Assembly: GCF_028641065.1 (NCBI RefSeq)
Contig: NC_073381.1
Coordinates: 57,350,001-57,414,000 of the forward strand
DNA: 64,000 nucleotides
Direction of reading: 5' to 3'
Source: Leucoraja erinacea
Taxonomy: Eukaryota
The translations under genes were made by a program, and so were the position numbers. Of the stretch, positions 931 to 63,122 are shown one piece after another. Numbering within the stretch: the stretch's first letter is position 1; the number at the start of each line of letters is the position of its first letter. The notes under the pieces were generated by a model. The model saw nothing but the letters and a program-made list of their open reading frames with translations. It did not search any database and was not told the DNA's origin.

Positions 931-934
931 AAAG

Positions 935-1040
935 CTCCGGACTGTCAAAGCTGCCACAGCCAGACATAAAAACAGTTTTATTTCCATGAGTAGTAGCTCT
1001 ACTCAATAACCAAAAGTCTCTAGCCTCCTTTTGCCAATAA
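935..1040 (+). mobile_element. Rex1/Babar-like LINE 3' fragment
   Basis: Degenerate R..K..T.RHKNSF..P....LLN-type C-terminal motif. Confidence 0.45.
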
Positions 1041-1179
1041 ACTTAAACTTATTCAACTTATTCAAGCCCATTTGCCCAGAAATTGTCATTGATATCAAAT
1101 TGAGAAGGACTTGAATATGTCAGACAATTAATTCTTACATGCATAATTTCTAAAGGTTTATCAGTCATTTCCTTTGCAG

Positions 1180-1230
1180 AAATTAAAAAAGAAAAGCAGA
1201 GAAAACCTTCAACCAAACCAGAGGAGAAAG
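1180..1230 (+). CDS. TRDN: 51-nt exon EIKKEKQRKPSTKPEEK
   Basis: tttcctttgcag|...AAAG|gtaatt. Confidence 0.75.
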
Positions 1231-1761
1231 GTAATTAGGTTTATTTTGCAAATGTGGAGAGAAAATTCCTAAATTTCAAGTTTATGAACAAATGGATCTG
1301 TTGGGCAGGTGAAGACCAGTTGCTGCATGAAGCCTGTCCTATACCTCTGTAAGATCAGATAATAACAACAAATTGCTTATTTTTTCTTTTTTTGATCAAC
1401 GTTCCTAAACTTTAATTCCCTCCACCACCCATTTTAATTTAGTTTATTGTCACGTAAACCAAGGTACAAAGAAAAGCTTTTGTTGCGTGCTGAGCATTCA
1501 GTGAAAAGACAATACATGATTACAATTGAGCAATCCAGTGTACAGATACATGATAAAGAGAATAACATAAATAATGTTAATGCAAGATAAAGTCGAGTAA
1601 AGTCCGATCAAAGACAGTTTGAGGGTCTCCTATGAACTAGACATAAAGGTACAACAATTTACCTATTTACGAACATGACGTTGAAAAGTCTCTGTGGCAG
1701 CAGCTTGGAGTCACTGCCACTATTGTTACAAATGTAAGCTCAACCCCCCCCCCACACTCCC

Positions 1762-1797
<36 letters not shown>

Positions 1798-28700: not shown

Positions 28701-31700
28701 TCTACAAGGCATAAGTCAGGAGTGTGATGGAAAGCAATCCACTTGCTTTGATGGGTGTCATCAAGAGGCTTGGCACTATCCAGGACAAAGCAGCTCGCTT
28801 TTCTAGCTGAGACCCGTTGAGTTACTCCAACTTTTTGTGTCTATCTTCGCTTTACTATCAACCTCCCAAAACATTCATTCCTTCCACCACCGTTAGCAAA
28901 CTAATGGAATTGAGTATTGGCTTATTATTGTCACATGCACCGAGAAACACGGAATAGGTTTCCCTTTTGTTCAGACCTTATTGCCCTGAAAATGGTATTG
29001 ATATCAAATTAAGATGGACTTTTAATGGTGTCAGACAAATAATTGTCACAGTATAATTTCTAAATGTTTATCAACCATTTTCTTTTTAGAAATTAAAAAA
29101 GAAAAGCAGAAAAAACCTTCAGCCAAACCAAAGGAGAAAGGTAATTGAGTTTATTGTGGAGTTGTGGAAAGAATATTCCTAAATTTTAAGTTTATGACCA
29201 AGTGTAGTTAATGGGTTGGAAAAGACTACACAAAGCCTGCCCTAAACCTTGAGTCTAGAACATCATGATAACATTCTTATTTTTTTCTTGCCCAACCAGC
29301 TGACATGTGTCCAGGAACACATGGAAAAAGGGGAGTTCCTTAGAAATCCATTCATTCCTCTGCTTATGTGGTTCTGATTTCTGCTTACAGTGCCTCCTTA
29401 GTGCATTAACTAGGATAATCTAGCAAAGTAACTATTAACATGGTCATTCAAATGTGTGTTAGCAGCCTGCATGAGAAATGCAACAAATCCAAATCCACAG
29501 GTACTCTTGAGCGCTGCAGTTTACATCTCTCAGGCCCTGATTCCAATTCCCTTATGAAGGCCCCAAACAAATCTATCTCTACCACCTTATCATGCAATGC
29601 ATATCACCTTATCACCTTATTGCACCTTATCAGCAATATTCAATCACTCAATGTGTGAATACAATACTTTTGTTCCCCTCAATTTTTCTCATTTACCTTA
29701 AATTTTGTAGCTTTCCTGTAGATTTCCTGCAGAACCTGTAGATTTGTTAGTTCACCATTTGAATAAGCAAATAATGGAGATAGGACTGTCAACAGAATAT
29801 CCGAATATGTTTCCTTTTTGTTTAGGCCTAATTGTCCTGAAAATGGTATTTATATAAAATTAAGATGGACTTTTAATATTGTCAGACAAATAATTGTCAC
29901 GTGCATAATTTCTAAATGTTCACCAACCATTTTCTTTTCAGGAATTAAAAAAGAAAAGCTGAAAAAACCTTCAATCAAACCAAAGGAGAAAGGTAATTGA
30001 GTTTATTATGCAATTATGTAAAGAATATTCCTAAATTTCAAATGAACAAATTAAGTTGATGAGTTGGAAAAATACCAGCTGCAACACGAAGCCTGCCCTA
30101 TACCATGAGACTAGAACATCATAATAAAATGCTTCTTTGTTCTTGGCCAACCAGCCAGCCATGTGTTCAGGAATGCATGGAAAAAGAAGAGTTTTGTAAA
30201 ATTTCCATTTACTCTATGCAGGTAGAGTTTAAAGAGTTAGGAAAGGACAAAAACATGCTTTTAATATAAAAGGATTTCAAATATTTTAATGATTTTAAGA
30301 ATGATTCACTATGCCAGTATTTATTGTCACTCCTGAATTATCCAAGATCTGAGCAGGATTTAAAGAGCCTCAAATTATTCAGAGGACAGGTTTCCTTTCC
30401 TAATGGACATCATTGAACAAGATGGCATTTACATCAAGGTCATGGTAATGTCTTACCTACCAAGATTATTCATTTAGTTCCAGATTTGAACTTTTATTTC
30501 CCAATCAACACTGTTACTTAAGCGAACTGCTGCGTGACCATACACCTTTAGCCCAAAAGCTGTTGTTGACACAGGCTCCAGACCTTTCGTTTTCCAGCAT
30601 TGACCAATATGGCAGGCAGTGTATTTGCAATGTCCTGTTACCATGCACCATGAAAAATGCTTGGAAAATTTATGCTGTAAAGTCTACAATTTGTTTCCTA
30701 AGTCTCCAAGCCTCTCTGACAGGTTAGAGTTTCTGTAAATTCTAATTGCACAATTTAAGATTTTTTGAATGTATTAATATGTATTTGCTTTTGTTCTGGC
30801 TCAAATTCCCTGAAAAATACGAATTGAGATGGTCTTTAATATTGTCGAATAAATGTTATATTCATGATTTCTAAAACTTTACCAACCATTTTGTTTGTAA
30901 AATTGAAAAACAAAAACAGTGGAGAAACCAAAGGAAAAACGTGATTAGGCATATTATATGGTTGTGGAAAACATTTCTCAGTTTCAACTTCATGAATATG
31001 TGGAGTTGATGGGCAGGAAACGACCAGCTGCTACATGAAGTCAGCCTTATACCATGAGATCAGAGCATCATAATGATATGTTTCGCTCTTGCCCCATAAT
31101 GTAGACTGATGCACACTGAATGCAAAATTTGAGGATTGGTTATTAGGTTAATATTGTCACATGTACTGAGATACAGTGAAAAATGTTGTGCACATAGAAA
31201 CCTAGAAACAGTTGTGCACATAGAAACATAGAAAATAGGTGCAGGAGTAAGCCACCTTCACAGCCATTCGATATGATCATGGCAGATCATCCAACTCAGT
31301 ATCCCATCCCTGCCTTCTTTCCATACCCCCTGATCCCTTTAGCCACAAGGGCCACATCGAACTCCCTCTTAAATATAGCCAATGAACTGGCCTCAACTAC
31401 CTTCTGTGGCAGAGAATTCCATAGATTCACCACTCTCTATGTAAAAAATGATTTTCTCATCTCGGTCCTAAAAGACTTCCCTCTTATCTTTAAACTGTGA
31501 CCCCTAGTTCTGGACTTCCCCGACATCGGGAATAATCTTCCTGCATCTAGCCTGTCCAACCCCTTAAGAATTTTGTAAGTTTCTATAAGATGCCCCCTCA
31601 ATCTACTAAATTCTAGCGTGTACAAGCCGAGTCTATCCAGTCTTTCTTCATATGAAAGTCCTGCCATCCCAGGAATCAGTCTGGTGAACCTTCTCTGTAC

Positions 31701-39946: not shown

Positions 39947-42900
39947 ACCTCATCATGCAGAGTAACAAGCTTCTTTTTCCTCTTTGTCAGTTCTGACAAA
40001 GGGGGTTTTGATCACAAATATTCACCTCGTTTCTCTTTCCATAGATGTTTAGTTTAGTTTAGTTTAGTTTATTGCCACATGTATCAAGATACAGTGAAAA
40101 GCTTTTGTTGCAGGCTAATCAATCAGCGGAACGACAATACATGATTACAATAAACCATCCACAATGTAAAGATAAAGATAATGATAAAGGAAATAACATG
40201 AATAATATTTAGTGAAAGATAACGTCCAGTAAAGTCCGATCAAAGATAGTCCGAGGGTAATGAGGTAGAAAATAACTCAGGACTGCTCTCTAGTTGTTGG
40301 TGGGATGACTCGGTTAACCAATAACAGCTGGGAAGAAACTGTCCCTGAATCTGGAGGAGTGCATTTTCACACTTCTATAAATTCTATCAATAATTAATGT
40401 TTTGTAATGTTTGCTGAATATTTAAGTAACATTAAAGAATGACCAATATTGAGCTTCATTCTATTGTTTGCCAAATGTTTAGAGGCTGAAACCATGAAGC
40501 AAATGAAGCCAAAACCTACGGAAAAAGGTAATGAAGATTAAGCCAATATATTAATCTGTTTTTATAATGCCCTACTCTCTTTCCTGACATTGCCTAAAGT
40601 ACAAAACTACCAGTGAGTCTCCGAGGATAAATGAATATGAAACTGATATTCTTAGAATGGAGTAACCTTGGATTTGTCCAGTTAAACCAATATTTGTCCA
40701 TACAAAGTCATCCCATAAAAAGTTATGATAATTTTGAAAAAATATAATTAATAAAATCAAAACTAAAATCTGTAAAGCTTGCCTCCATGAACAATCTCTG
40801 AACATTAAAAGGCGACTAACTTACCAAATCTGCTCTGATGCAGTCTCAAAATGAGGATGTAAATAACTTGCATCAACAATAAGAGCTGACAAATTTTACG
40901 TTGTTTGTTTGGGTAAACCACAATATATAACGTCGTTGCGTCATTATCTCCTATTTTATGCTATCAACCGGAGTTGAAATTGGTCTCACTTTGTGAGAAT
41001 ATGAAATGCCTGCTAACCAATGAATTAAGAGTAGTTTTTCATCAGGCAAAGGGCAAAACATAGATAGCTGACATATCAGAATATTTCCTTTCAAAAATTA
41101 CCCAGTCTTCTTATGTCATATTCTCATTAACTCCCAACAGCCAAAAAGCCAAAAGTAAAGAGTAAGTGATCTTCATTCAAATGTTATTAATATTGCTTGC
41201 AATAATATTTACTTGGCATTGTAGGTGACTTTGAAAAAGCTGTAGATTTTAATATCAGTGGCGCTGGTATATGTATTGTAAATGTCTACATAACATTTTC
41301 CATCCTGTGCTTTTAATATACTGATGCCATTGTGTCGGAGAATGGATTTGATTCAGACTTGAAATTCTCTGCGATAATATTCAGCCTTTAATATTTATGC
41401 AATATCAGATTCAATGAAATATATAGTTGTTTTGCTTTAACAAAGGAGTTCTAAGTTTGAAATTGAATTTAACCATGCATATTGAATGATTAAGGTGGAA
41501 GCATATATGCTTAACTCTGCTTCAAACATTCATTTTATATAAATTTTATGGTAATGCAGGTGAAGATCAATTTCTATCCCAATGTCAAATTCCAAAAAGA
41601 CATGTGGTCCCGTGTTCAGTACATACATGAACCAGGGCATTAGAACCTCAGCAAGTTGGAATCGGGCTTGTCATCTGGTTTTCAATATATTATACTTCAG
41701 GCTTGATTTTCTTTAGGCTGAACATTAAAACACTCTTGAAGGCCTACTTGAAAAAAAACTTATAAAGATCTGTCCCAACAATAAATGACCTATGAAGAAT
41801 TCACCTTTTTCTTTCAAAATGCTGCATATAACTTTTAAGCAATTATGTACACTGCTGAACAATCCTATTTTTATGGGATGGTTGATTAGTATTGCAAAAA
41901 CTTGAACATGAAAACGTGGGTGAAAATGCAGTGGGACACTGAAATTGAGTGTGATTACTTGACAGAAAATGAAAAACTTATCAAAATTGTTCAGCCTGTG
42001 AATTTTCATTCCAAAAGCTGAGTCATCTACAGAATCTTTGTTCTCCGCCAACCAACAACCTAGGTTAAAACAAAATAAAGAGGCATTGTGATGGGATCAG
42101 TTTTGCAGTTAAATCCATTTATTGGCAGATTGCTGATGTTTTATTCAATTGTGCATGAGTTGAACCATTATGGATGGTAACATTCACTATGCCCTTGAAG
42201 GAAGCACAGTTATAGCCAGCCTTTATCTGTGGGCCTAAACATGGCAGGGATATTTCTTGTGTATTCCTCTAAAATAAGAAAACATAAATTTCACATTACT
42301 GAAGTCGAAAACTCCTTGAGTCAAGACATGGGGACTTTGGCAGTATACCTACGACAGTAGCATCTAAAGCTGAGTAAAGGAAAAACAGTGTCAACAGCAT
42401 TCCATCTAAACAACAAGGAAGCTAAGCGAGAGCTAACTGTCTTCGTTAACAACAGGCGATTGGACTTCCAAAAAACACCCACTTACCTCGGTGTAAAGCT
42501 GGACAGGTCACTTACATTTCATCAACACCTGGCTGGTCTCTGCGACAAGGTCATGGCATGTAGCGGCCTCATCCAACGCCTGGCAGGAACAAGTTGGGGA
42601 GCCAGTCCATCAACTCTTCGCACCTCTGCCTTAGCTCTTGTGTATGCGCCAGCTGAGTAATGCGCACCCGTATGGAGTAGTAGACATACTAGCCTGGTAG
42701 ACACGAGCCTGAACAGCACCTTACGAACCATCACTGGGTGCCTTCAACCTACTCCAGTCGAGCAGCTCCGTATACTTGCAGGCATTCCGCCTGCAGGGAT
42801 CCGAAGGCAAGCAGCAACTCTGACACTATCTCGTCGTGCCATGGACCCAGATCACCTCCTCCATCAGGCTATCAGCAGAGAGCAGAGGCCACCCCAACTG

Positions 42901-45900
42901 AAGTCCCATCACCCCTTTGCTCCACATGGAAAACAACTCCTAGCATCCATCCAGCCAAATGAGACAAAAGCACACTGGATAGCCACCAAGTGGTCACAGG
43001 AGTGGAAGGCAACCTCATCTCCATTACACAGCTACATCTCTTCACCAGATAAAAGCTTTCCCGGGTCTGACCTCCCCAGAGGAGCATGGGTGAAGCTCAA
43101 CAAACTTCGTACTGGAGTTGGGCGTTTCAATGCCAGCATGTGGAGATGGGGACTCCTCCAAAGCCCAGCCTGCAAATGTGGAGCAGAACAACAGACAGCC
43201 AACCTTGTCATCTCTGGGTGCCCGCTCTACCACCCACCAAATGTAGCTCAGGGTCTGGCAAACATTGACGCAGAAACAACAGGCTACTCAAAACCCGGCT
43301 TGAGATCTAACTATTCCTTTGGTTTATGTTTCATTCGCAAGAAGAAGAAGAATAACAGATCAGTTTGCAGAATCAGACAGACAGACATATTAAGTGAGTC
43401 CATAACACGGACTTCATTACATGCAGAACTCACGGATTTCATTATTCTATCTCCGTTACACTGACGACTGCATCAGGGCTACCTCCTGCACCCATGCAGA
43501 ACTCCCGGAACCAACCTGACCTCCCGGTGGCTCAGCACTTCAACTCCCCCTTCCATTCCGTATCCGACCTCTCTGTCCTGGGCCTCCTCCACGGCCAGAG
43601 GGAGCAACACTGGGAATTGGAGGAACAGCACCTCATACTCCGCTTGGGGAGTCTGCATCCTGGTGGCATGAACATTGAATTCTCACAATTCTGTTAACCC
43701 TTGCTGTCTCCTCCCCTTCCTACCTCTCCCTCAGCCATCGGGCTCCTCCTCCTCCTTTTTCCTTTCTTCTCCCCACCTCCCCCCACCTTCTATCAGTCTG
43801 AAGAAGGGTTTCGGCCCGAAACGTTGCCTATCTCCTTCGCTCCATAGATGCTGCTGCACCCGCTGAGTTTCTCCAGCATTTTTGTGTACCTTCGATTTTC
43901 CAGCATCTGCAGTTCCTTCTTAAACTCTTAATCATGGAATTAATTAACTTCCGACACTTTGTTGTTACTTCTTCCAAAATTAATGAAAACTAAAAAAACA
44001 CCCCAAAGTGAGCTAGACTTATAAAAACCCAATCCAAGCCCTAATTATATTTCATGGTGGGATAAATGTCAGTCACAAGGAAGCTTCAATATAGTTATCA
44101 CCAATGTCATGGCAATATGGTCATTATATTAATCAAACGTTAACTTAAATTGAATGTTAATTGGATGAACTTCATTTTTGGAGCTCAATTTGCTCCCATA
44201 AGCAGAAGCATTGGCTTCTGAGGACAGATTCCTGGAGCTAGGTTTCTGTAGCAATGTCCATGTCTTCCACTCTTGGTATGTAGTAGAGTACCCTGCACTT
44301 CAGCTTTCTCGATAATAAAGGGTTATCCATGCTTTGCTTGCTATCTTTATGAGACATTTACATCTGACAGATTTGACTTGAACCAGATGGATTAATATGT
44401 AAAAGTTGGAATATCTCTTACATCCCTCAATCCAATTCTGGGAACATCCCTTCACTCTTTGAACTCCACTTATCTCTGCTTTGGGATAACCGCCTCTTTT
44501 TAAAGGATCTGTCCTTTATTGATGATCCTTCATCAATACTTCCAGTGCCTCCAGAAACGGGAAACTTCCCACAGCCCAGCTTCTTGATATGTTTTGAATT
44601 TTGACATATTATTAGGTTACTAAATGTTCTCTGTAACACCCATTTTTACCTGATTGTTTGAGTTTCTTTCTTTTTTTGTCAGGTGCACAATTAGGATTCG
44701 TTGCTTCATTGCTGCCCAAACATGCTCTTTGCTGCCCTTAACATACATGGAAACTGATACCATCGATGCCTGCCTCTTAGCTTCACTGCATTGCCCACAC
44801 CACATTGCTGTAGCTGGTCTCATAATAGGCAGCTAAGCAGGTTGATGTTCAAATATCTTCATAATCTTCTTCTCTATAGTAATCATAAGGCTCCTACTGA
44901 GACATCTCCACAGGAGTAACAGATCTTAAAAGATGCACATGATTAATGACCCTCTGGTAATGGTAACAAGGCAAATTTTATCAATGTCATTATTATGGTA
45001 ATTACCACGTTAATATACTACATGTTGAATATGGATGTTGAGACTGATATCCAGTTAATATTTGTGTACAATTAAAGTTGAATTCCTGTGCACCTAATTC
45101 AATTGTTTATTAAATGTTTAGAGGCTGACACTGTGAAACAAGTGAAACCAAAGCCTGCAAAGAAAGGTAACTTGAAATTAAAACAATGAGATATTTATGC
45201 ATATTTCCAACCTCACAAGAAAACTTTAATTTAGTCTCGAGAGATGAATGGGTTATCATATCAAGCATTATGCATGCCAGTTTACAGCTCCTTTTGGCAA
45301 TAGAAGGAAATAGGAAAGTTGATTTCAATTCAGTTAGATGTTGCATGCTAATCTGTGCATTATAAAATCCTTCAAAACCATCAATTACATTGCTAATTAT
45401 GAAACATAATTAATGACTTCCTATATCCACTAAATCAGCCGTGATCTTATTGAATGGCGGTGCTGTCTCGAAGGGCTGAATGGCCTATTCCTGCACCTAT
45501 TTTCTAAATGAAAGGAAGCCAAATGGACAATCCAATGGACACCACACAATGCAAATAAAAAGATAAGACCCTTACAACATGCAAAGCAATTCACATCCTT
45601 CTGCAGTTGTACATGACCCTGGTGAGACCACACCTGGAGTATTGTTTGCAGTTTTGGTCTCCTAATTTGAGGAAGGACATTCTTTCCGTTGTGGGAGTGC
45701 AACGTAGGTTCACGAGGTTAATTCCCGGGATGGCGGGACTGTCATATGATGAAAGAATGGAGCGACTGGGCTTGTGTTCACTGGAATTTAGAAGGATGAG
45801 AGGGAATCTTATAGAAACATATAAAATTATTAAGGGATTGGACACGCTAGATGCAGGAAACATGTTCCCGATGTTGGGGGAGTCCAGAACCAGGGGACAC

Positions 45901-48900
45901 AGTTTAAGAAAAAGGGGGAGGCCATATAGAACTGAGATGAGGAAAAATGTATTCACACAGAGAGTTATGAAATTGTGGAATTCTCTGCCTCAGAAGGCAG
46001 TGGAGGTCGATTCACTGGATGCATTCAAAAGAGAGTTAGATAGAGCACTTGGGGCTAGTGGAATCAAGGGGAATGGGGAGAAGGCAGGAACGTGGATGAT
46101 CAGCCATGATCACTTTGAATGGCGGTGCAGGCTCGATGGGCTGAATGGCCTACTCCTGCACCCATTGCCTGTGTATCTATGTATCTATTACATGCTTAAT
46201 TTTGAGTCAGTCATTGCCAATGCATTTAATGAATTAAATCACAGACTTCTTGTCGAAACACAATAATTATTGTATGATCACCCTCCAAAATCAGAGGCTA
46301 TGAGTTGACCTGATAGAAGTATAAAAAATTAAGAGAGGCAGAGCTAAGCTAAACAATCTAGTTTTTAATCTAAGGTTAGTTTTTTCTTATTGGGAATATC
46401 AAATGTTAGAGGGCACAGCTTTAAGGTCAGTGGGGGAAAATTTAAAGGCGAGTTATGGCACAAGACTTTTACACTGAGAATGGTAGCTGCCTAACCACAC
46501 TGCCGGGGTTGGTGGTGGAGGCAAATACGATAGTGACGTTTAAGAGGCTTTTAGATGGGCAAGTGAATGAATGTGCAGGGAATGGAGGGATATGGATCAC
46601 ATTTAAGTACAAGGTATTAGTTTAAATTTGTACATGTTTGGCACATACATCGTGGGCCAAAGGGCCTGTGCCATGTGCTGCACCTATTTAGGCGCTATGT
46701 TATCTTCAATATGACAAAATACTTACCTTAGATTTTTTTTCGAACAGCAGGAAAGCCTAAAGTCACAAGTGAGTAACTTCTATGAAGATGTCATTGTTTT
46801 TTTAAATAATATTTCATTGGTATAAGGATATTTACATTATCAAAGTTAGTATAGTTACAAAGCAAATGTGTTCAATTGTGAACATTTATACCTGTTTGAA
46901 TGTCTGCTAACATTTCTGAGAAACTAGATGTAAATCAAACTCACTGCCTATTTAATATATTGAGACACAGGGCTAATTAGTTATCACTCCAAATACATAA
47001 TGGCTATTTTAATGTCTCTAAAATAATTTTAGTCTTGATATAAATTGAATTTCACTTACATTCGATCAATGAAGTGGCCTGACTTGCCGAGGTTGAATAT
47101 TAGAAATCAGTTTCTGCATTGTCAGTTTGTACCTTGCAGCATTTGTGTGTAATAATGCAAGTTGTCTGTGCACCACAGAAAGATGGAACTGATCAGCTTC
47201 TCAGTTGGTTAGTCCATGAAATAATAACAGAACATGTTGGATACATTAAGTCATCCAAGGAGATCTGGGCAAAGAAAAATGTTTCATGTTGAAGATCATT
47301 CATTAGATTTCCACTATCTCCAGTCTTTTGATTTTCATTCTGCATCATCTGTAAATTGCATATTAATTTTGTGAAGCTGTTTCAGTTCACAAATTTGATT
47401 TGGTTTATTTTGCTACTGATAAAAATAAAACAGAAAGTGGTCAGAACATTTGTTTTCTTTTTTGTTTCTCATATAAACCCTCTTCATGCATTAGAGCTGA
47501 GGAAACTAGGGCAATTTTGGATCCTTTATCCAAGCGCATGTTTCCTCTGCTTTGAGTTAATCATCACGCAATCACAGAACTGTTAGTGCTCCGCAGAAGG
47601 GTTTTCAGGCCATTGAGTTTGTACCAGCTCCCAGTACGGCAAACCTATCAATCTCATTCCCCCATACTTTCCCATGCACCTTTTTTTTATTGCTAATGCT
47701 TATTCAACATCTTTTTGAAAGCTCTGATTCATTCCGTTTCCACTATCTCTGTTGGCAGTAAATTGTAACTATTCTCTATAATCATGTTTCTATGTTCTTC
47801 TCAATTTTGGATGTCTGCCTCCTGTTCCATGAACCAAATGCGAACTGAAACATACTCTGTCTACTTGTTAAATTCAATAGCACATTGAATACCTCAGTAA
47901 AATCAGCAGTCAATTTCCTTTGCTCCAAGGGGATCAATCACATCTTCTTCAGTCAAAATCATTTCTGTGATCTCTTATCAAGTGAATATTTTCAATATGC
48001 TCTCCACATTTTTCAGATCCTTCATCGTGAATTGATCAGTTTGGATATAATACTCTAGTTTTAGGCTCTCTAGAGGACCATAATACTGTCCGGCCAAGAT
48101 CATCTGGGAATCCTTACCAAAGAAAGTTTTCAATTTTTCCACATTTATCTTTCTTTATATTTTAATTTCTGCAGCTTTGCCCAATCTTTTGGCAGTCTAT
48201 CCCTATTCTTCTCTATGACCATTTTTTACTGCAGTAAAATAACTTTGTTTATTTTACAGACAAAGGCTCTATATAGCTGTTTCCTCATCTGATTTTCAGC
48301 CTCAATCAAACTCTGCTGTTGTCCAAGCTTTCTGTGCGTATTTTTGCTGTGTTAACTAATTAAATATTCCAAAGTGCAAAAAGACTTCTATTTAACTCTG
48401 CCAAGCCTGGCTGGTGCAGCAAGTTGGTGTGTAGCATTTCCGTGCTGTGCAGGAACTGAGGATAATCGTTTGATAATATCATCAGTGGTTGGTGCAACCA
48501 GTTATTTGGTTAACACTTCTTTCATTCTACTCAAGGAATCTCACTTCAGCTCATTTCCATTGGAGGATTTTACTGCCTCTTAAATTGGCATTGGTGGGGA
48601 TGGCAGTCACTATTGTTTCACTGATGTCCAATAATTAATACATATATACATAATTATTAACAAATATATTACCTTAAATGTACCTTTAAATAATTTTATG
48701 ACTGTATAATATTGATAACTTTATGTGTATATCTAACAGTTGTCTAAATTGTGGTAATCTTTCACAACATCAGAGATGGAAATAGTTAACATTTCAAGTT
48801 GAAGACATTCTAACAGAATTTTTTATCAAACCTTTCAACAGTTTGAAATAATAACAATTTATCTCCATCGGTGCCTTGATACCTTATGGTTATCCTTGGC

Positions 48901-51900
48901 ATTTTCTGTTTTTAATTCTGATTTCCAGCATTAGTAATAGTTTAATGTTAGATATAATATCTGGTTGATGTTCATCCACACATAAGATTAATACTGGGCC
49001 TAATCCAATGTTTAGAGGCAGAACCTGCGAAGCAAGTGAAACGGAAGCCCGAAAAGAAAGGTAACAGAAATGAAACCAATTAAATGTTTATGTGGTCCTC
49101 TAACAGCAGTTCTCCTACTTTTCCCATTACTCTAAAGCAGGAGAACAGTGTGTCCATGATGTATCTGACTCATCCTGTCCAGCACTCCATTGATACTCTC
49201 TTAGAATGGAGGAAAATGAATGTATGAACCGGTGTTGCATGGGGACATCTATAAAACGTCATTTGACAATAGTAGTAACAATAAATGTAATGTCAAAGAA
49301 TAATTAATATAAAACACAAAATAATATTCAGTTCAAATACAGCTCCTTAAGTACTATGAATATCAGCACAAGCATTGATGAGCATTGACTTCAGTTAACA
49401 AATTCCACATTTGTTAACTGAAGCGTAGCAAGAAGTGAATATGAATAAATTGAGAAAGCAGCGGCTTTATTTTTATGTACGATTTGATATTTTTTACATT
49501 GGCCAGTAGTATAAAACTAATATTGCATCAGGAACAAATTATGTGCTTCATCGGTGACATTCCTTCCAAATACAGTCACAAGTGGGGATGTTTGATTATG
49601 AATACACAATTTCAATTCCATTCCATTCACAAATTGGAGTGGCACATTGGTGCAACTGGTAGAACTGCTGCCCCACTGTGTCAGAGACCCGGATATGATT
49701 CTGTCCTTGGCTGTTGTCTGTGTTGAGTTTGCACATTCATCCTGTGATCACATGGGTTTCCTCCGGGTGCTCCGCTTCCCTCCCACATCCCAAAGACATG
49801 TGGGGTTGTAGATTAATTAGGCTCTGTAAATAACCCAATAATGTGTGGACAATAGGTGCCAGAATAGTAGGTCATTCAGCCCTTCGAGCCAGCACCGCCA
49901 TTTAATGTGATCACGGCTGATCATCCCCAATCAGTACTCGTTCCTGCCTTCCCCCATATCCCCTGCCTCCACTATCTTTAAGAGCCCTATCTACCTCTCT
50001 CTTGAAAGTATCCAGAGAACTGGCCTCCACCACCCTCTGAGGCAGAGAATTTCACACTCACAACCCTGTGTGAAAAAGTGTTTTCTCATCTCCGTTTTAA
50101 ATGTCTTACCCATTCTTAAACTGTGGCCATTGGTTCTGGATTCCCTCAACATCAGGAACATGTTTCTTGCCTCTAGCATGTCCAAACCCTTAATAATCTT
50201 ATATGTTTCAATAAGATTCCCTCTCATCCTTCCAAAATCCAGAGTATAAAAGCCCAGCCGCTCCATTCTCTCAGCATATGACAGTCCCGCCATCCCGGGA
50301 ATTAACCTTGTAAACCTATGCTGCACTCCTTCAATAGCAAGAATGTCCTTCCTCAAATTAGGGGACCAAAACTGCACACAATACTCCAGGTGTGGTCTCA
50401 CTAGGGCCCTGTACAACTGGAGAAGGACCTCTTTGCTCCTATACTCAACTCCTCTTGTTATGAAGGCCAACATGCCATTCGCTTTCTTCACTGCCTGCTG
50501 TAGATGCATGCTGACTTTCGTTGAATGATGAACAAGAACACCCAGATCCCGTTGTACCTCCCCTTTTCTCAACTTGACACCATTTAGATAATAATCTGCC
50601 TTCCTGTTTTTGCTACAAAAGTGGATAACCTCACATTTATCCACATTAAACTGCATCTGCCATGCATCTGCCCACTCACCCAACCTGTCCAAGTCACCGT
50701 GCATTCTCATAGCATCGTCCTTACAGTTCACACTGCCACCCAGCTTTGTGTCATCTGCAAATTTGCTAATGTTACTTTGAATCCCTTCATTCAAATCATT
50801 GATGTATATTGTAAATAGCTGCAGTCCCAGCACCGAGCCTTGCGGTACCCCACTAGTCACTGCCTGCCATTCTGAAAGGGACCCGTTGATCCCTACTCTT
50901 TGTTTCCTGTCTGCCAACCAATTTCCTATCCATGTCAACACTCTACCCCCAATATCATGTTCCCTAATTTTGCCCAATATTCTCTAATGTGGGACCTTAT
51001 CAAATGCTTTCTGAAAGTCCAGGTACACTACATCCACTGGCTCTCCCTTGTCCATTTTCTTAGTTACACCCTCAAAAATTTCCAGAAGATTAATAAAGCA
51101 TGATTTCCCCTTCGTAAATCCATGCTGACTCAGACCGATCCTGTTACTGCTATCCAAATGTGCCGCTATTTCATCTTTTATGATTGACTCCAGCATCATC
51201 CCCACCACCGATGTCAGGCTAACTGGTCTATAATTCCTTGTTTTCTCTCTCCCGCCTTTCTTAAAAAATGGGATAACATTAGCTACCCTCCAATCCACAG
51301 GAACTGATCCTGAATCTATAGAACATTGTACATTTTTCACCAAGCATCCACGATTTCTATAGCCACGTCCTTAAGTACCCTGGGATGCAGACCATCAGGC
51401 CCTGGGGATTTATCAGCCTTCAGTCCCATCAGTCTACCCTACACCATTTCCTGCCTAATGTGGATTTCCTTCAGTTCCTCCATCACCCCAGATAATCTGG
51501 CCAGTAGTACATCAGGAAGATTGTTTGTGTCTTCCTTAGTGAAGACGGATCCAAAGTACCGGTTCATTGTAGGGAGTGGATTAGAAAGCATAATAACATA
51601 GAACTAGTGTGAACAGCATGAACTCAGTGGGCCAAAGGCCCTGTTTCAACATAAAATCTTGTCCTACAAGCAGAAAGACATGGACAGAATTTGGGCATGG
51701 ACTGATAAAAAACAAGTAAGTTAAGTGCATTAAAACTGCCAGATAATGAACATCTCCAACAAATATGTCAAACCACCCATCCTTGATACTCTTGACACAA
51801 TGACACTAGTTGGGTCCCACCGTAAGTTGGAGGAACAGCACCTCATATTTTGCTTGGGTAGTTTACACCCCTGCTGTATGAACATTGACTTCCAATTTCA

Positions 51901-54900
51901 GGTAGTCCTTGCTTTCTCCCTCTTTCCCCTCCCCATCCCAGCTCTCCCACAGCCCATTTTCTGCTGCCTCTTCCTTTCTTCTTCTCGCCCCCACCACCCC
52001 CACATCTGTTTGAAGAAGGGTCTCGACTCGAAACACCACCTATTCCTTCGCTCCATAGATGCTGCCTCACCCGTTGAGTTTCTCCAGCATTTTTATCTAC
52101 CTAGTAATAGGAATAGTCCTTTTCAAAAATGTTGCATGAATCTTACCTCAGATTGTCATAATTTTGCTCCTAAACAGCAGAACAACCTAAAGTGACAAGT
52201 GAGTGACTTCCGTGAAGATTTTATTCTTGTTTGCTGTTGAGTTGAATGGTCAGAGCTACTGGCAAATGCAATGCAAATTCGGCATGAATTTTCAATGTAC
52301 AGCATTTTCAGTTGTTGATACCGTTGGTTCCCCAAATGAATGGCTGTGTTAAAGGAAAATAGTTTATCTTCTCCATACAAGGCATAACATTTAATTGAAG
52401 CTAGATAAATGTCCTATTTTCCTACATTTTTGGGATGTTATAAACTGTGAGAGCAAATGTAGCCTAGTCCTTCTCAACATTATCATCCTCAAACAGACAC
52501 AATAATATAACCTTGTGCCTTGTATAGGTGGGAGCATTTAATAAAATGAAAGTAATCTAGTTGGCCCATGTCCCTGATTTTTTTGTACGTTACATGAGAA
52601 AGCAAAAGGTAATTTTACTGTGGTGACCACTAATATCATAATAATATGAGATTCTCGACCCGAAAGGTCACCTATTCGTGCTCTCCAAAGAAGCTGCCTG
52701 AACCGCTGAGCTACTCCAGCATATTATGGCTGTAATATTAATTGCATTGTTGAATTCTGATCCAACTTCAGGCAAGCCCAATTGCAGACTGTCATTTTGT
52801 ACTCCCAAAAATTGGGGCATGCCTAACACTTTATCTTGGCTTGGTGAGAATTGATTATTAAAGCTACATTTGGTAATTACATTCACTTTATTTCAATTAG
52901 TGAACTTAAGTAAGTAAGTTTCCGCCTCTAAGGCATCTGGGTAGAGGGAAGATGTCTTGCATTACTATATCCAGAAAGATTCTGAATGCACACAGTTTGG
53001 TTCTTTCTCTCATGATGGCATTTCCCAATATAAATAACTATTTATTTTAAATGGCAAGCAACTGTGTATGCGCAGCAGATGCCTCTCTAGATTTCCGCCT
53101 CGAAACAACCATTTTCTACCCAGGTACCCTGCGCCTATTTTCTGTGCATAAGAATCTGATTAAATCGAGAAGGAGAAAGGAAGATAACTTTGCAGAATTC
53201 ACTGAACGTGTCTTCCTTTCAGTCTGCACACCTATACCAATGTTCAGACATAATTTATACTATCCATGTTTTGTTGACATTGAATTGGTATTTATCATGA
53301 TCAGATGGTCAAAAAAGAGTGGCACTGGCGATGAACTGACTAAACTGAACCTGGCTTTGGAGACTAAATTACTTCTTTACATCGAGTCAAGTGAATGGAG
53401 TCTAAATATGTCTGTTGTATGATTTCTGTTCTTACAATCAATGGTAAATAAATGGAAGGATGGTGAGAAATTACTCAGCAGTGTAACATTGCCTCATTTT
53501 TGTGTGCAAACTAGAAGGTAAATAAAACCTATATGTTTTACAACATTAATTACAGCATATTGTTTGGATTTTGAATTTGCGTTTAAGACTAATATATGTT
53601 TAATATTCATTTTCAATTAAGATGTTACTACTAATTAACCTAATTAATTGTTCTTCTGATGCTTAGAGGCAGAAACGATAAAGAAAGTAAAACAAAAAAC
53701 TGCAGAGAAAGGTAACACCACTGGAATGTTTACATCTGGTGGTAAATTTCCAACTCTCCCTCTTCTGATACCAAATGTTTTAAAAAAATCATCTTACGAT
53801 GTGTTACAGATTTTGATCTCTCTTTTTTTAGTTCCAATTTTCTTATCTCAATATCGATGAAAAGAAAATGCATAAACATCCTCGGGACATATCGTACCAT
53901 GTATCGCAGCATTTGCTTCTGATTGGAAGCACAAACTGCACGGGCCCAACTTATAAAATTAATTTGCGAATTTAAGTAAATTATAATTAGTCACAAAACT
54001 TGAATGCCCCTAGGCCACTTCACTAGGCATGCATATGTACAAATGGCCATGTGATGTCATTAATTGGTCTTTTAATAATGTGTTTTGTGGATGGATACAT
54101 TTATCAATCAAACGATTGAAACATTAGTTTAATACCACTCCTGGCTGGGGCTAAAAAACAAATTGGTTATCGAGTGACTGAAGCCCTTCTCTCACTCCAA
54201 AAAAAAACATTGCATGTTAACTCATACTTTTATTATTATTTATCTCCTAAACAGCAGTAAAGGTAGCAAGTGAGTGATTTCTATGATTTATTGTAAATAT
54301 ATTTTTCTTGTTATCCGCAAAAATGTTTTATTGGCATTAGAGCTTTCATTCCATACCTAGATGGTAAAATAAATATAGAACTACTATTATATAGAAATCA
54401 AACTGGACATAACTACCTTGTTTCCACATTTACGTTACAGATTATTAATATTTAAAAATGAATCAAATTTGTGAATTTTCTTTAACATATTGCATGCATA
54501 AGTATGATGTTTTTAGTGCAATGTTGTTTGCTGAATTGCATGTGAAAAAAAACAAACTAGAAGTCTGTTGCTTCTTTTAACATAGAATATAGAAAAGTGC
54601 AGCACAGGAACAGTCCTTTCACCCACAATGCCCGTGCTGAATAGGATGACAAGTTTGATTAGTCGCCTCTGCCTGCACATGATCCATCTCCATCATTCCC
54701 TTCACATCCGTATGCTTATCTAATACCCCTTGAATGCCGTTATGATATCTGCCTCCTCCGCTAACAGTGGCAGTATTTTACAAGCTCTATGGAAAATGCC
54801 TGCCTCGCATATCTCCTTTAAACTTTGCCCCTCTCACATCAAAGCTATGCACTCCATCCTTTGACATATCCATCCTGGGAAAATGGCTCTGATTGTGCAC

Positions 54901-57900
54901 CCTATCTATGTCGCTCATAATTTTATATACTGAAGTCTCTCCTCCGCCTCTGTTGCTCCAGAGAAAACAATCCAAGTTCGTCCAACTTCTCTTTACAGCT
55001 AATACCATCTAATCCAGGCAGCATTCTGGTAAACCTCTTCTGCATGCTCTCCAAACCATCCACATCCTGTCTGTAATGGGGCAACTAGAGCCACACACAA
55101 TCCTCCAAATGTTGCTCAACCAAAGTTGCACAGGTGCAACATGACATCCTGATTGTTGTACTCAAAGCTGCCACTGACGAAGGCAAACATACCATATGCA
55201 TTATTTTTATTTTTCTCCACTCCCTTTTACTTCATCATTAACATTTTCAACGAGATTTAAACCCATTGCACTTTTTTCATATGAATGCTGATTTTGGGGC
55301 TGAGATTAGTTGAACCCGGTCCATTGACCCACAGGCAAGTTTGATTATAGAGATAAAGTGATTACATAATAAGTCTAGTTGTTAGTATCACCAGCATTAT
55401 AGCACTTTTGTCACCATATTAATTGGGTTATAAAACAAATTACGTTTTCATTTAAAAGCTTTAGTTTCGAGTCTCATCTCACACATGAACAATTCCTGCA
55501 TTATTAATACACTGACCTGGCCAGCTGATATATGTATATATAGTGAAAGTTATTTGTGATTCCTGTCTATCTGCAAATATATTTATTGTATGTGGACGTA
55601 AGAGTTGGCAGTGATTGGGCAATGTATCAGTAAGTTACATCGAGGTCTGAGTGACTTCACTTGACCTTTCTTTTTTATTTACTCTCCAAAGATCAATTAT
55701 TGAGTGGATGGCACCAGTAGCAATTTTCTTTTCCATTGCCGCTTCATTTAATACAATATTATTAATACAATACAGCATGTGCATTGTTCTATGGATTTAT
55801 TGTTTTATGGCGGGCGAATAAGCAAACCACACGTGGTGAATCAAAGAGATCTTTATTGTCAAAGTAAAGAGAACAACACACATGCAAATGGGGGAAGGTT
55901 GACCTGGTTTCATTATATATACTGGGGCACACCCCTATACCTCGTGACAACTCCTTCCCGCCATTACTCAGTCATGTGACCCTACCCCCGACTGCCGAGG
56001 GTTCGCATAGTAAGTGGCCTAACCACCAGGTGGTGCCACAGTTTAGTTCATATTTATGTGCAATTGTATTATGATTAACTTTGAACACAATGCAATATTT
56101 GTTTTAATGTTTAGAGACCAAAACCATGAAGCAAAATAAACCAAAACCTACAACAAAAGGTAATGGGGCTTCACTTCATTACCTTGACTGTTATTACGAT
56201 ACACTAAAAAGTTGTTGATATCAATTGAAAGTTTCCTAGCTGAGCTCAACTTCAGTAGTCCACTTGTCCCTAAAGATTGGCACAAGGTAAATGAGTAGGA
56301 AGGGAGGCTAATGAATTGGCTGATTAGAGCTGCTGAGAATGTTTCTTAAGTCTCCAATTCATATGTTTCAAAATTTGTATTTAACTGTTCAAATTCTTTG
56401 TATATTGATTTAATAGTCATCTAGCACTGAAGCAGGCACTTTGGCCCTACTTTTCCATGTCCACCAAGATACATGCTGGTCCTGTTTGTGTCCGTCCCAT
56501 AACCCTCTAAACATTTCCAACCCATGTACCTGTCCAAGTGTCATTTAAATTGTGTTAATTTACCTGCCTTGACTACTTCCTCTGGTTGCTCACACCCTGG
56601 TCCCAACACTGTCGTTGTGGTAAAGATGCCCCTCAGGTTACAATTAAATATTTCCTCTTTCACCTTAAACATATTCTTGATTCCCCTGCCCTGGTGCTCC
56701 AAGCAATAAAGTCCTACCCTTTCCCTCTAGCTTAGGCACTCGCGTCCTGGCAACATTCTCATTGGTCTCCTCCGCACTTTTTCCAGCTTAATGGCATCTT
56801 TCTTGCAGCAGGGTGGCCAAAACTATGCAGAATTTTCCAAGTGTAGCTTCACCAATCTTGTACAACAACTTATACACCGTAACATAAAATTCCGACCTTT
56901 ATTCTCAATTCCATGACTGATGAAGGCTTGCAAGCCAAAAGCATTATTGAACACACTATCTACCTGCAATGCCACCTTAAGGAAACTATGTATTTGTATT
57001 GTTTAAGAGGGAACTGCAGATGCTGGAGAATCGAAGGTTACACAAAAAAGCTGGAGAAACTCAGCGGGTGCAGCAGCATCTATGGAGCGAAGGAAATAGG
57101 CAACGTTTCGGGCCGAAACCCTTCTTCAGACTGATCGGGGGCGGGGGTGGGTGGGGACCACACCAGGACATCTGAAATGTCCTCACTATTCAGGGAACGG
57201 GGGTTCCCCTCCTCCACCATAAATGAGGCTCGCACCAGGGTCTCTTCCATACCTCGCAACACTGCTCTCTCTCCCCATCCCCGCACTCGCAACAAGGGCC
57301 GAGTCCCCCTAGTCCTCACCTTTCACCCCACCAGCCGTCACATACAAAAAGTAATCCTCCGTCAGTTTCGCCACCTCCAACGTGACCCCACCACTCGCCA
57401 CATCTTCCCATCTCCCCCCATATCTGCCTTCCGCAAAGACCGCTCCCTCCATAACTCCCTTGTCAATTCTTCCCTTCCCTCTCGGTCCACCCCCTCCCCG
57501 GGCACTTTCCTTTGCAAACGCAAGAGATGCAACACTTGTCCCTTTCCCTCCACCCTCGACTCCTTTCAAGGACCCATGCAATCGTTCCAGGTGCGACAGA
57601 GGTTTACCTGCATCTCTTCCAACCTCATCTATTGCGTCCGCTGCTCTAGATGTCAGCAGATCTATATCGGTGAGACCAAGCGGAGGTTGGGCGATCGTTT
57701 CGCCGAACACCTCCGCTCGGTCCGCAATAACCAAGCTGACCTCTCGGTGGCTCAGCACTTCAACTCCCCCTCCCACTCCGTCTCCGACCTCTCTGTCCTG
57801 GGTCTCCTCCATGGCCACAGCGAGCAGCACCGGAAATTGGAGGAACAGCACCTCATATTCCGTTTGGGGAGTCTGCACCCCGGGGGCATGAACATCAAAT

Positions 57901-60900
57901 TCTCCCAATTTTGTTAGTCCTTGCTGTCTCCTCCCCCTTCCTCAGCCCCCCTGCTGTCTCCTCCCATCCCCCAGCCTTCGGGCTACTCCTCCTTTTCCCT
58001 TTCTTGTCCCCACCCACCCCCGCCCCCGATCAGTCTGAAGAAGGGTTTCGGCCCGAAACGTTGCCTATTTCCTTCGCTCCATAGATGCTGCTGCACCCGC
58101 TGAGTTTCTCCAGCTTTTTTGTGTAACCTATGTATTTGCATTGTTACACAGTGTTGCCATTCACTGTGAAGGTCAGGCCCTGGTTTGACTTTCCAAAATG
58201 CAACACCACACACTTATCTAAATTAAACTCCATTGGCTATTCCTTGCCCATTTTTCCAGTTGATTAAAACCCCAGTGTCATTCTTGATAGCCACCTTCAC
58301 TATCTACAATAGTGCTGATGAAGTTCAGCAGGTCAGGCAGTATGTGTCTGCAGTACCAACTATTTTGGAGGTGTCTGCAAACTTACTAATCATGGCTTGT
58401 ACACTCCCATCCAAATTGTTGATGTAGATGACAAACAGCTATGGGCCCAACAATGACACACCAGTGGCACACCAATCAGTCTCAAGCCTCCAGTCCCCCC
58501 AAAAACAACTTCCACCGCCACCCTCTGTTTCCTACCTTTAAGCCAATTCTGTATCCAGTTAGCTAGCTCTCCCTGGATCCCACGTGATTTTAACTTCCAG
58601 AGCAGCCTACTGTACGGAACCTTGCTAAGGGCCATATAAACAACATCTCCGGCCCTGCCCTCATCAACCTTCAGTGGCCTTTGCTCACCCACTGACACTT
58701 CAATCGCTTGCCCTGCCCAATTCCCTGCCAGCAAGACAAACGTTGCCCCTTCCCTTGCAGGGCCCTCTACACATCACCTTTGATTCCTGAGTACACTAAT
58801 AAATTCCACCCCATTTAAGCCAACCTACATAGGGAAAGTTAAAACTCTTGATCTACATCGGGAAAGTCGAAATCCCTTCCTATGACAGTATGTGTTTTTT
58901 TTCCTGCAGTAAAATATTTTGTTAAGTGATTGCAGTTCATAGATTCAATTTAGTTTATGGTAACTGTACTTTATGAATAAAATGCTCAGTGTCAGTAATC
59001 TGATCTTTCTGGCTGCTTCCTTGTGATATGAATCCAAGACTGCCTATTTATTTCACTGCTTCCATCCAAGCTGATTCAACATCAGGGTATTTAATTTAGT
59101 TTAGTTTAGAGTTACTGCACAGAAACAGGCCCTTAGGCCCACTGAGTCCGCACTGACTAGTGATACCCACACATTAACACTCACCTACACACACTATGGA
59201 CAATTTTACATTTATACCAAGCCAATTAATCTACAAATGATTATCATTTTCTATAAAGAAGGCCATCGGCTTTCGCTGTACTCCTCCAGAGTATTCACTG
59301 ATTGAGGAACTTTTGTCAAGTTTTATTTCCAGACATCTTTGGATGCAATTTTATTCACTTTTCCTCCAATTAAACATTACCTAACTACAACTTTTGCCAT
59401 AAGGGAAACTCCATTTTATTAACCTCCTGCAAGAGTCCTTGGATACTCCAGCTTTTTGTGTCTATTTTCATTAGATTGACTGGTGTTCAACAAATGATGC
59501 TCCTTCCCTGACTCCAAGAATCCCGCATGGACTGCTGATTAAATTGAATAGACGTTGGAAAGCTCTTTTTAAAAAATGATCACTGAGGCTGCCCTTCCTA
59601 TCCATTTAGAAATCTTTGACTATGGCTTAAGCTGCCATATATAATCTTTATTTATTTGAATGATAAGAGAAAATATGGCATTGAAGTTTAAAGTACTTCA
59701 TAATCTTTCTTTAAATTGATAGCAGTATCACTTAGAATAATCTCCACTGCTAAATTGGATTACCTATAAAAGCAGCATATGGATGCTACCATGATCTATG
59801 GAGCGAAGGAATTAGGCAACGTTTCGGCCCCAAACGTTGTCTATTTCCTTCGCTCCATAAAAGCTGCCGGACCCGTTGTGTTTCTCCAGCACTTTTGTCT
59901 ACCTTCGATTTTCCAGCATCTGCAGTTCCTTCATAAACATATGAATGCTACCAGCTGCCTATTCTGAGTTTTTTTTACTGAACATTTATTAAATCACAAT
60001 TGCACATATTCATAGAATGTGCTGTACTTGCATCTTATTTGAATTTATATACAATTAGTAGATGATTAATATTGGATTCAATTGTTTCTTCAATTGTTTA
60101 GAGACTGAAAAAATAAAGCAAGTGAAACCGAAATCTCGAGGAAAAGGTACCAATAAGTTAACTTATTTAACTATTTGCATTCTTCTAAGCTTACCATTGC
60201 CCTTCATCCCAGTGTGAAACATATTTTGGAAAAGTGAGGTTTCTCTTCATGCACCTAATGGGGAGGAAACTTGCTGAAAACAGTTTTTCCCCCTGAAGTA
60301 GCCTTTTCTTATCTCTATACTGTCCTCGAGTTGTTGTGCTGTTATTGGACCTGATTCAATTTTTTCATCAATTGTTTAGAGGCAGAAAAAATAAAGCAAG
60401 TGAAACCAAAACCTCAAGTAAAAGGTAACATAAAAGTTAAGTTAATTAGATATTGGCATGCTTCTAACATTACACTGCCATTCATTCCAGTGCTATACTG
60501 TATATGGACAAGTGAAATTTCCCTACTCAGAAAATGGAAAAAGCTGCTCACAGCTAATCAATTTTCTATCTTCACAGTATCTTCACACTGTTTTGCTATA
60601 GTATTTAAATACTTTGGGCACGTTAATTGGGGTGTTGATTCTCAATGAATATCATTGGAACTCTTTCTACTTCCAGGAGATAGGGATGCAAATCCAAGGT
60701 ATGATAAGATGTATGATAAAGGTGAGACTGAAAGAGACTGAATGACAGATGCAGCAGTGGTTATTCAGGTTGAGCATGAAGATAATGGGAGCAGAGTATG
60801 AACTGATCAAGAAAATTATCTTGATCCGAGCCTCTTCCCTCTCTTTTATATCCCAATCTAGTTTAAGATTGCTCAGTCATGCATACATGCCAAATACGTT

Positions 60901-63122: not shown

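What the first reader, a model, noticed from the sequence alone, without database searches (positions are those of the whole stretch)
40483..63122. Second, older exon series: 45-nt exons alternating with 21/15-nt microexons
Seen: eight 45-nt-family exons (40483, 45122, 49016, 53667, 56115, 60102, 60380, 63084). The first four are each followed by a tiny exon (41141, 46748 and 52178 at 21 nt; 54255 at 15 nt) with perfect gtaagt/gtgagt donors. The introns are mostly no longer alignable by eye, yet length, phase and the KQVKPKP motif persist. Inference: an ancient two-exon module duplication kept under purifying selection. The gene has therefore undergone at least two separate rounds of exon amplification.
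Basis: partly seen in the sequence, partly recalled or inferred. Interest (0 to 1): 0.7.

Follow-up and report, generated by a model that had tools for sequence, protein, structure and literature searches.

The report
Duplicated mini-exons in skate triadin
These are small duplicated exons of the muscle calcium-release gene triadin in a skate, several of them seen spliced into RNA, and they likely just lengthen the protein's positively charged, probably floppy tail, a kind of growth that gecko and turtle triadins also appear to show.

Summary
All 12 exons are at the stated coordinates, with AG/GT sites, symmetric phase 1 and open frames. They lie inside a ~290-kb triadin (TRDN) gene of a skate: the transmembrane exon is 177 kb upstream of the window and the conserved last exon is at +112.7 kb. 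RNA-derived contigs show 5 of 12 spliced directly (53667>56115; 56115>60102>60380>63084>...last exon). Microexon 52178 has indirect support. The 15-nt exon 54255 is skipped in the one run that bridges it. 40483 and 41141 were not tested. Exon 63084 is a 45-nt copy cut to 39 nt by acceptor loss. The family is older than the 51-nt series: flanks are near random, against 72-81% identity. Exon identity, splice sites and frame are conserved, but amino-acid purifying selection is not significant once transition bias is modelled (omega 0.6-0.7). Duplication as a two-exon module is plausible but unresolved (AU p=0.15). 'Two rounds' understates it: about seven duplicated exon families occur in this gene. 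Gecko and turtle triadins have repeats of their own. Verdict: real and largely unannotated, but an ordinary kind of tail expansion in a known gene.

The parts
40483..40527 (+). 45-nt family exon 1 of triadin (phase 1-1)
   Evidence: Sequence and profile; not covered by the RNA lays
41141..41161 (+). 21-nt microexon 1
   Evidence: Homologous to the other microexons including donor flank; splicing not tested
45122..45166 (+). 45-nt family exon 2
   Evidence: bin depth in run X1 fits exon-only cover at about 5x (indirect)
46748..46768 (+). 21-nt microexon 2
   Evidence: too short to be laid, so splicing is unresolved
49016..49060 (+). 45-nt family exon 3
   Evidence: bin depth in X1 fits exon-only cover at about 5x (indirect)
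52178..52198 (+). 21-nt microexon 3
   Evidence: X9 contig starts at 52176 after 7 foreign letters, exactly 30 nt before the donor; X1 contig geometry at 53667 needs an upstream exon not ending in G (indirect)
53667..53711 (+). 45-nt family exon 4
   Evidence: X1 contig of 3343 nt (depth 18) covers exactly these bases and runs on into exon 56115
54255..54269 (+). 15-nt microexon: a 21-nt family member with a 6-nt deletion; skipped in X1, so a minor alternative exon or a decaying one
   Evidence: Alignment; skipped
56115..56159 (+). 45-nt family exon 5
   Evidence: Loose end of the X1 contig; N-terminus of P0121
60102..60146 (+). 45-nt family exon 6; youngest pair with 60380 (233-nt intron)
   Evidence: In P0121 and in RefSeq XP_055492347.1; tree support 92/98
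60380..60424 (+). 45-nt family exon 7
   Evidence: In P0121 and XP_055492347.1
63084..63122 (+). 39-nt exon: a 45-nt family copy whose original acceptor (before 63078) reads AA, so the internal AG 6 nt downstream is used
   Evidence: Profile hit at 63078, alignment; spliced as 13 codons in P0121 and P0122
38375..38425 (+). Candidate single-copy 51-nt triadin exon between the two series
   Evidence: Splice-site scan; not tested in RNA
1180..30940 (+). Context: younger 51-nt exon series; it begins 14.9 kb upstream of the window; 34 copies in all, 30 with AG/GT, 1 with a GC donor, 3 broken
   Evidence: 36 rows, of which 2 AT-rich chance hits were dropped

Best explanation
The twelve elements are tandemly duplicated, frame-symmetric exons of the skate triadin gene; five are shown spliced, and they likely add a lysine-rich, probably disordered stretch of about 140 residues to the luminal tail of the long, skeletal-muscle-type isoform. 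Mechanism. (1) Shown: the gene is triadin, and the copies sit between its transmembrane exon and its conserved last exon. (2) Shown: the copies are homologous, phase 1-1 and multiples of three, and neighbours are included together, not mutually exclusively. (3) Inferred: unequal crossing-over copied an exon with its flanks; such a copy cannot break the frame, so it is tolerated; the four 45+21 pairs probably arose as a unit, and 60102/60380 are a later copy. (4) Partly shown: selection keeps splice sites, frame and lysine-rich make-up, while residue identity drifts at a rate not distinguishable from neutral; copies are lost or trimmed at the edges (54255 skipped, 63084 shortened). [quoted passage not shown]
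For: PF05279 transmembrane exon on the same strand 177 kb upstream of the window, 93% identical to Hypanus triadin. Pristis and Carcharodon triadins map exon by exon in order; the last exon at 112725 matches lizard and turtle triadin C-termini. X1 contig joins 53667 to 56115. P0121, from a 900-nt Logan contig, joins 56115, 60102, 60380, 63084, four further small exons and the last exon across 57 kb. The length of the X1 contig would end at about 115745, near an AATAAA at 115771. Exon identity is 0.68-0.79 against 0.33-0.36 in flanks. Neutral simulation gives P(7 of 7 intact) = 4e-3 to 5e-7. The block is 34% Lys with net charge +33. AlphaFold of P0121 alone gives pTM 0.18 and one helix (single sequence, weak). 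Repeat-stripped exon-to-microexon introns are 543-919 nt against raw 543-3117.
Against: No transcript was seen that links these exons to the transmembrane exon. 40483, 41141 and 46748 have no RNA support here. X1 and X9 are from one study, are only guessed to be RNA by the tool, and are Logan contigs, which drop rare forms. The raw-read run X8 gave no usable junction. The tree does not group the four module exons (0% of 200 bootstrap trees; AU p=0.15 does not reject them either). The neutral simulation ignores that intact copies are the ones found by eye. The codon tests rest on 14 codons x 8 copies. No binding or physiology was tested.
Confidence: 0.82

Rival explanations
1. One reading: an ancient 45+21 two-exon module, all parts constitutive, with the KQVKPKP motif itself under purifying selection as a repeated binding site.
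For: Strict alternation four times; microexons are homologous with shared donor flanks. Nei-Gojobori omega is 0.32, bootstrap 0.11-0.65. The central third of the exon is the most conserved (0.79).
Against: With transition bias in the model, omega is 0.6-0.7 and 2dL only 1.4-2.0. 3 of 54 residues differ from a near relative against 0 of 83 in the unique C-terminus (Fisher p=0.059). Exon differences are 3 of 75 nt against 34 of 2063 nt in introns, so exons are not better conserved. 54255 is skipped. The exact motif is in 2 of 8 copies. No clear homologue of the exon was found in 13 other triadins tested, but the shark and ray proteins at hand are truncated before this region.
Confidence: 0.15
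2. The 3' exons (from about 53667 or 60102 on) form a separate short transcript or gene, as RefSeq's 139-residue 'triadin-like' model implies, and the upstream copies are silent relics.
For: XP_055492347.1 starts just before 60102. Intronic contigs at depth 2-5 in introns 52199-53666 and 54270-56114. A sense transcript of the 3' exons, separate from the cardiac one, is described in mouse heart (PMC13401598, passage seen).
Against: The RefSeq start reads through the intron and acceptor of 60102, while P0121 and X1 splice in from further upstream exons. X1 bin depths fit cover of 45122 and 49016. Upstream copies are as intact as downstream ones.
Confidence: 0.07
3. The block is a regulated cassette array: tissue- or fibre-specific inclusion of the microexons and 45-nt exons tunes tail length and charge, and the expansion is adaptive for skate muscle.
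For: 54255 is skipped yet keeps a strong donor (score 5.0). Depth in X1 differs between 45122/49016 (about 5) and 53667 onward (18). Gecko RefSeq triadin isoforms differ by blocks of about 18-21 residues and multiples of them inside a 20-residue repeat. The 51-nt series gives omega 2-2.5 (2dL 3.6-6.1).
Against: No tissue comparison was possible. Depth differences in contigs also follow 3' bias. Omega above 1 in A-rich paralogues can come from few synonymous sites and gene conversion.
Confidence: 0.2

Closest known systems
Triadin (TRDN), long skeletal isoform Trisk 95
   Same: Short N-terminus, one transmembrane helix (PF05279) and a long basic luminal tail (PMC7183767, passages); a gene of many small exons (41 in human, PMC3363337, passage); conserved luminal Cys-motif exon and last exon.
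   Different: The skate tail carries about 31 near-identical 51-nt exons plus this 8+4 series; by my rough sum it is about 1,300 residues if every candidate exon were included. The longest triadin among the 120 hits listed is 1,070. The block holds only one borderline KEKE stretch, against four in the large upstream exon.
RefSeq XP_055492347.1, triadin-like [Leucoraja erinacea], 139 aa
   Same: Contains 60102, 60380, 63084 and the downstream exons; it lies on a contig of the same length as C5.
   Different: Lacks 9 of the 12 elements and starts in an intron. It looks like the cut-off 3' end of triadin. Other gene models at the locus could not be viewed.
Lineage-specific repeats in gecko (Sphaerodactylus) and turtle (Carettochelys) triadin
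   Same: Near-perfect internal repeats of exon-like size in the tail: period 20 (identity 1.0) and period 17 (0.8); gecko isoforms differ by repeat-sized blocks.
   Different: Different unit sequences; their exon structure is inferred from protein only and was not tested on DNA.
Tandem duplicated exon substitution events (PMC9741552)
   Same: Tandem homologous exons inside one gene.
   Different: Those are alternative or mutually exclusive; here neighbouring copies are included together. TRDN is not mentioned in the main text or in the one supplement file held.

Membership tests
Triadin (TRDN) | N-terminal cytosolic segment plus single transmembrane helix of family PF05279, upstream on the same strand | tested here: met
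   C5:57172652-57172750 +, 33.8 bits against cut-off 23
Triadin (TRDN) | Best hits are triadin, not ASPH/junctin | tested here: met
   Nearly all named hits among the 120 listed are triadin or TRDN, none ASPH. A stronger PF05279 locus lies on C4; that it is ASPH is inferred, not checked
Triadin (TRDN) | Conserved luminal Cys-motif exon and C-terminal Cys-motif exon bracket the tail | tested here: met
   Window -120265 and +112725
Triadin (TRDN) | The exons in question are spliced to the triadin last exon | tested here: met
   P0121 for 56115 onward; X1 for 53667>56115
Triadin (TRDN) | One transcript joins them to the transmembrane exon | not testable with these tools
   Needs long reads; lays are limited to 20 kb and two calls
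Triadin (TRDN) | KEKE motifs in the lumen (definition from PMC3427183) | tested here: met
   Four stretches in the large exon near -122,500; only one borderline 13-residue stretch in the 45/21 block
Triadin (TRDN) | Binds ryanodine receptor and calsequestrin | not testable with these tools
   Taken from mammalian literature only
Tandem exon duplication | Homologous exons, same phase, tandem, with homologous flanks | tested here: met
   flank homology is strong only for the last three copies
Mutually exclusive duplicated exons | Only one copy per transcript | tested here: not met
   Four copies in a row in P0121; 53667 and 56115 together in X1
Two-exon module duplication | Module-bearing exons form one group and module introns are homologous | tested here: inconclusive
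   AU p=0.15; 1 of 6 intron pairs at z=3.4, controls up to 1.7
Microexon | Very short, frame-preserving and included in mRNA | tested here: inconclusive
   Frame: 4 of 4. Inclusion: 52178 indirect yes, 54255 no in X1, 41141 and 46748 unresolved
Exons under amino-acid purifying selection | dN/dS significantly below 1 | tested here: inconclusive
   0.32 by Nei-Gojobori but 0.6-0.7 and not significant with kappa

The most novel reading that the evidence does not exclude
Triadin's luminal tail is a recurrently expanding 'accordion', grown independently in skates, geckos and turtles by amplification of symmetric mini-exons, and its length and charge are set by regulated exon inclusion to tune how calsequestrin is tethered at the calcium-release junction. 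The skate gene, with about seven families of different ages, would be the extreme case.
Probability: 0.2. Interest if true: 0.55.

Novelty: new variant of a known kind. Interest (0 to 1): 0.3.

Why it matters
It corrects an annotation: the skate triadin is split in RefSeq, and the shark and ray triadin proteins retrieved all stop before this region. It also records, in one gene, exon copies at every stage: young and near-identical, old with erased flanks, trimmed by acceptor shift, and skipped. This makes the locus a tidy model for how disordered protein tails grow. It would matter more if tail length proved regulated or adaptive, because mammalian work assigns the RyR1-activating site to residues 200-232 (PMC3427183) and finds the tail dispensable for triad localisation (PMC7183767), which leaves the role of the distal tail open.

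Tried and rejected
Run search listed no holder on record as RNA; this is no evidence either way. The first lay (19 kb) was swamped by repeats, so only its bin depths were usable. X8 raw reads showed traces in three exon bins but none at 53667; not used. From bin depths I first suspected that 63084 is spliced as 45 nt; P0121 and P0122 show 39 nt, so this was rejected (the 46-nt cover implied by the bins is unexplained). The search for elasmobranch orthologues of the block found only P0121 and a chimaera C-terminal fragment P0127 without a clear copy; P0128 and P0129 are low-complexity chance hits. A peptide profile against 13 other triadins gave 5 with shuffle p below 0.05, at inconsistent positions; not taken as homology. 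No remnant microexon was found after 56115, 60102, 60380 or 63084. Rfam: 0 hits in 38000-64000. One free MGK+F3X4 fit failed to converge and was replaced by a grid. Earlier scan findings: none near this place; two 'triadin' notes from other genomes concern other loci. Literature: seven full-text searches listed no paper on exon amplification in triadin or on elasmobranch triadin; subscription papers are mostly not covered, and bioRxiv supplements were closed.

Full report
Observation. Each has AG before and GT after, a length divisible by three and phase 1 at both ends, and the chain is open with or without 54255. A position profile of seven 45-nt copies, scanned over 464 kb of surrounding genome on both strands, gives leave-one-out scores of 56-74, against at most 5.3 on the opposite strand; the eighth copy scores 46 and nothing else exceeds 18. 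The eighth copy aligns from 63078, where the acceptor reads AA instead of AG, and the AG six bases inside is used, giving 39 nt. The 15-nt exon aligns to the 21-nt exons with a 6-nt gap and shares their donor flank. The exact KQVKPKP motif is in 2 of 8 copies.

The gene. The window is G000:C5:57350001-57414000. A PF05279 transmembrane exon lies on the same strand 177 kb upstream. It is 93% identical to Hypanus triadin and 100% over 73% of its length to Pristis triadin. Ray and shark triadins map exon by exon in order across the upstream region, and the C-terminal Cys motif of lizard and turtle triadins maps to an exon at window +112725. The gene spans about 290 kb. A RefSeq protein, XP_055492347.1 'triadin-like [Leucoraja erinacea]', 139 aa, on a contig as long as C5, covers 60102, 60380, 63084 and the 3' exons but starts by reading through an intron. 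So 3 of the 12 elements are already annotated there, in what looks like the split-off end of triadin. I could not view other models at the locus.

Splicing. In run X1 a 3343-nt contig (depth 18) covers exactly 53667-53711 and continues with the first 30 bases of exon 56115 (one mismatch), so 54255 is skipped in that run. P0121, from a 900-nt Logan contig, joins 56115, 60102, 60380, 63084 (39 nt), four small exons at about 69978, 70682, 76459 and 81376, and the last exon; it can only come from spliced RNA. That is 5 of 12 shown directly. For 52178 the support is indirect. An X9 contig begins with 7 letters that do not fit the genome, then fits from 52176; this start is 30 nt before the donor, the geometry expected of a 31-mer assembly branch at a used exon. 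The X1 contig starts exactly at 53667, which requires an upstream exon not ending in G; all 45-nt exons end in G and the microexons end in A. Bin depths fit exon-only cover of 45122 and 49016 at about 5x in X1. 40483 and 41141 lay outside both lays, and 46748 is too short to lay. X1 and X9 come from one study, the tool only guesses they are RNA, and contigs drop rare forms, so 54255 may still be a minor exon. DNA contigs of run X5 (a second coded organism) span the ten elements inside the laid stretch other than 56115 at about 97-98% identity; this shows presence, not selection.

Age and history. The 51-nt series (34 copies from -14865 to 30940; 2 chance rows dropped from 36) has flank identity of 0.81 upstream and 0.72 downstream, against about 0.60 shuffled. 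The 45-nt series has 0.63 and 0.61, against 0.61 and 0.59, so it is older. Within it, 60102 and 60380 are a later pair (flank z about 20; tree support 92/98). Further duplicated pairs lie upstream at about -72437/-70026, -45960/-43681, -20755/-20114 and -17236/-15587 (candidates from splice-site scans, not tested in RNA). With the 51-, 45- and 21-nt families that makes about seven. The two-exon module is plausible: strict alternation, and repeat-stripped introns of 543-919 nt. But only 1 of 6 intron pairs aligns above controls, and the tree neither groups nor rejects the four module exons (AU p=0.15). No date can be given: the shark and ray proteins retrieved stop before this region, and the chimaera fragment shows no clear copy.

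Selection. Exons are far more alike than their flanks (0.68-0.79 against 0.33-0.36). Under a neutral simulation without indels, all seven full copies would keep AG, GT and an open frame with probability 4e-3 to 5e-7 (this ignores ascertainment). So exon status is maintained. Nei-Gojobori gives omega 0.32, but a codon model with transition bias gives 0.6-0.7, with 2dL 1.4-2.0 against omega=1. Against the relative behind P0121, 3 of 54 residues differ in the repeat exons and 0 of 83 in the unique C-terminus (p=0.059). In X1, 3 of 75 exon bases differ, against 34 of 2063 intron bases in X1 and X9 (p=0.14). All these samples are small.

How it likely works. Triadin is a type II membrane protein of the junctional sarcoplasmic reticulum with a long luminal domain that multimerises and links calsequestrin to RyR1 (PMC7183767, passages; PMC9391951, passages). 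The RyR1-activating KEKE site is at residues 200-232 (PMC3427183, passages), and isoforms differ in tail length (PMC3363337, PMC8471218, PMC13401598, passages). In the skate gene, KEKE-type stretches sit in the large upstream exon, while the 45/21 block is 34% Lys, net +33 over 138 residues, with one borderline KEKE stretch. A single-sequence AlphaFold model of P0121 has no fold (pTM 0.18; weak evidence). I infer that symmetric exons in a tolerant, charged tail are copied by unequal crossing-over without harm, kept as long as they splice in frame, and trimmed or dropped over time. The added chain would act as a longer basic tether. No binding or function was tested.

Comparison and novelty. 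It is triadin by every feature I could test. It is tandem exon duplication, but not of the mutually exclusive kind (PMC9741552, passages and one supplement file; TRDN not mentioned). Gecko and turtle triadins carry their own 20- and 17-residue repeats, and gecko RefSeq isoforms differ by repeat-sized blocks, so repeat growth seems to be a recurring habit of this gene. Seven full-text searches (listings only, apart from the papers named) found no paper describing it. Verdict: a real, mostly unannotated feature of a known gene and a known process; interest 0.3.

Noticed in passing
window -14865 to 30940 (G000:C5 about 57,335,000-57,381,000): Young 51-nt exon series of triadin, 34 copies: 30 with AG/GT (one of them 45 nt), one with a GC donor (26465), three broken (15341 donor, 24516 acceptor, 30900). 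Codon model gives omega 2-2.5 (2dL 3.6-6.1), which may be an artefact of A-rich codons or gene conversion.
   Followed up: partly
window -72437/-70026, -45960/-43681, -20755/-20114, -17236/-15587: Four more pairs of duplicated small phase-1 exon candidates in the same gene.
   Followed up: partly
window 52199-53666 and 54372-54971: Runs X1 and X9 hold low-depth (2-5x) contigs inside these introns, one running from microexon 52178 into the intron. This may be unspliced pre-mRNA, DNA, or a read-through end making a shorter isoform.
   Followed up: no
window about 60060-112873: RefSeq splits the gene: XP_055492347.1 'triadin-like' starts by reading through the acceptor of 60102. All shark and ray triadin proteins retrieved end before the repeat region.
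   Followed up: partly
window 40483-63122 splice sites: The 45-nt exons have a consensus exonic donor side (AAG) with a weak +5 position, while the microexons end in A with a full intronic consensus; several 45-nt acceptors score poorly, and three offer a second AG at +6, the one used by 63084.
   Followed up: partly
P0125, P0038 and related gecko isoforms; P0112 turtle: Independent near-perfect repeats (period 20 and 17) in other vertebrates' triadin tails; gecko isoforms differ by repeat-sized blocks.
   Followed up: partly
window about 42300-43300: By eye, a decayed retroelement-like coding fragment that is single-copy in the 464-kb region; multi-copy repeats also sit at 45433-46657, 49641-52102 and 56497-58582.
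   Followed up: no
G000:C4:34347416-34361861: Stronger PF05279 match, likely the ASPH/junctin paralogue.
   Followed up: no
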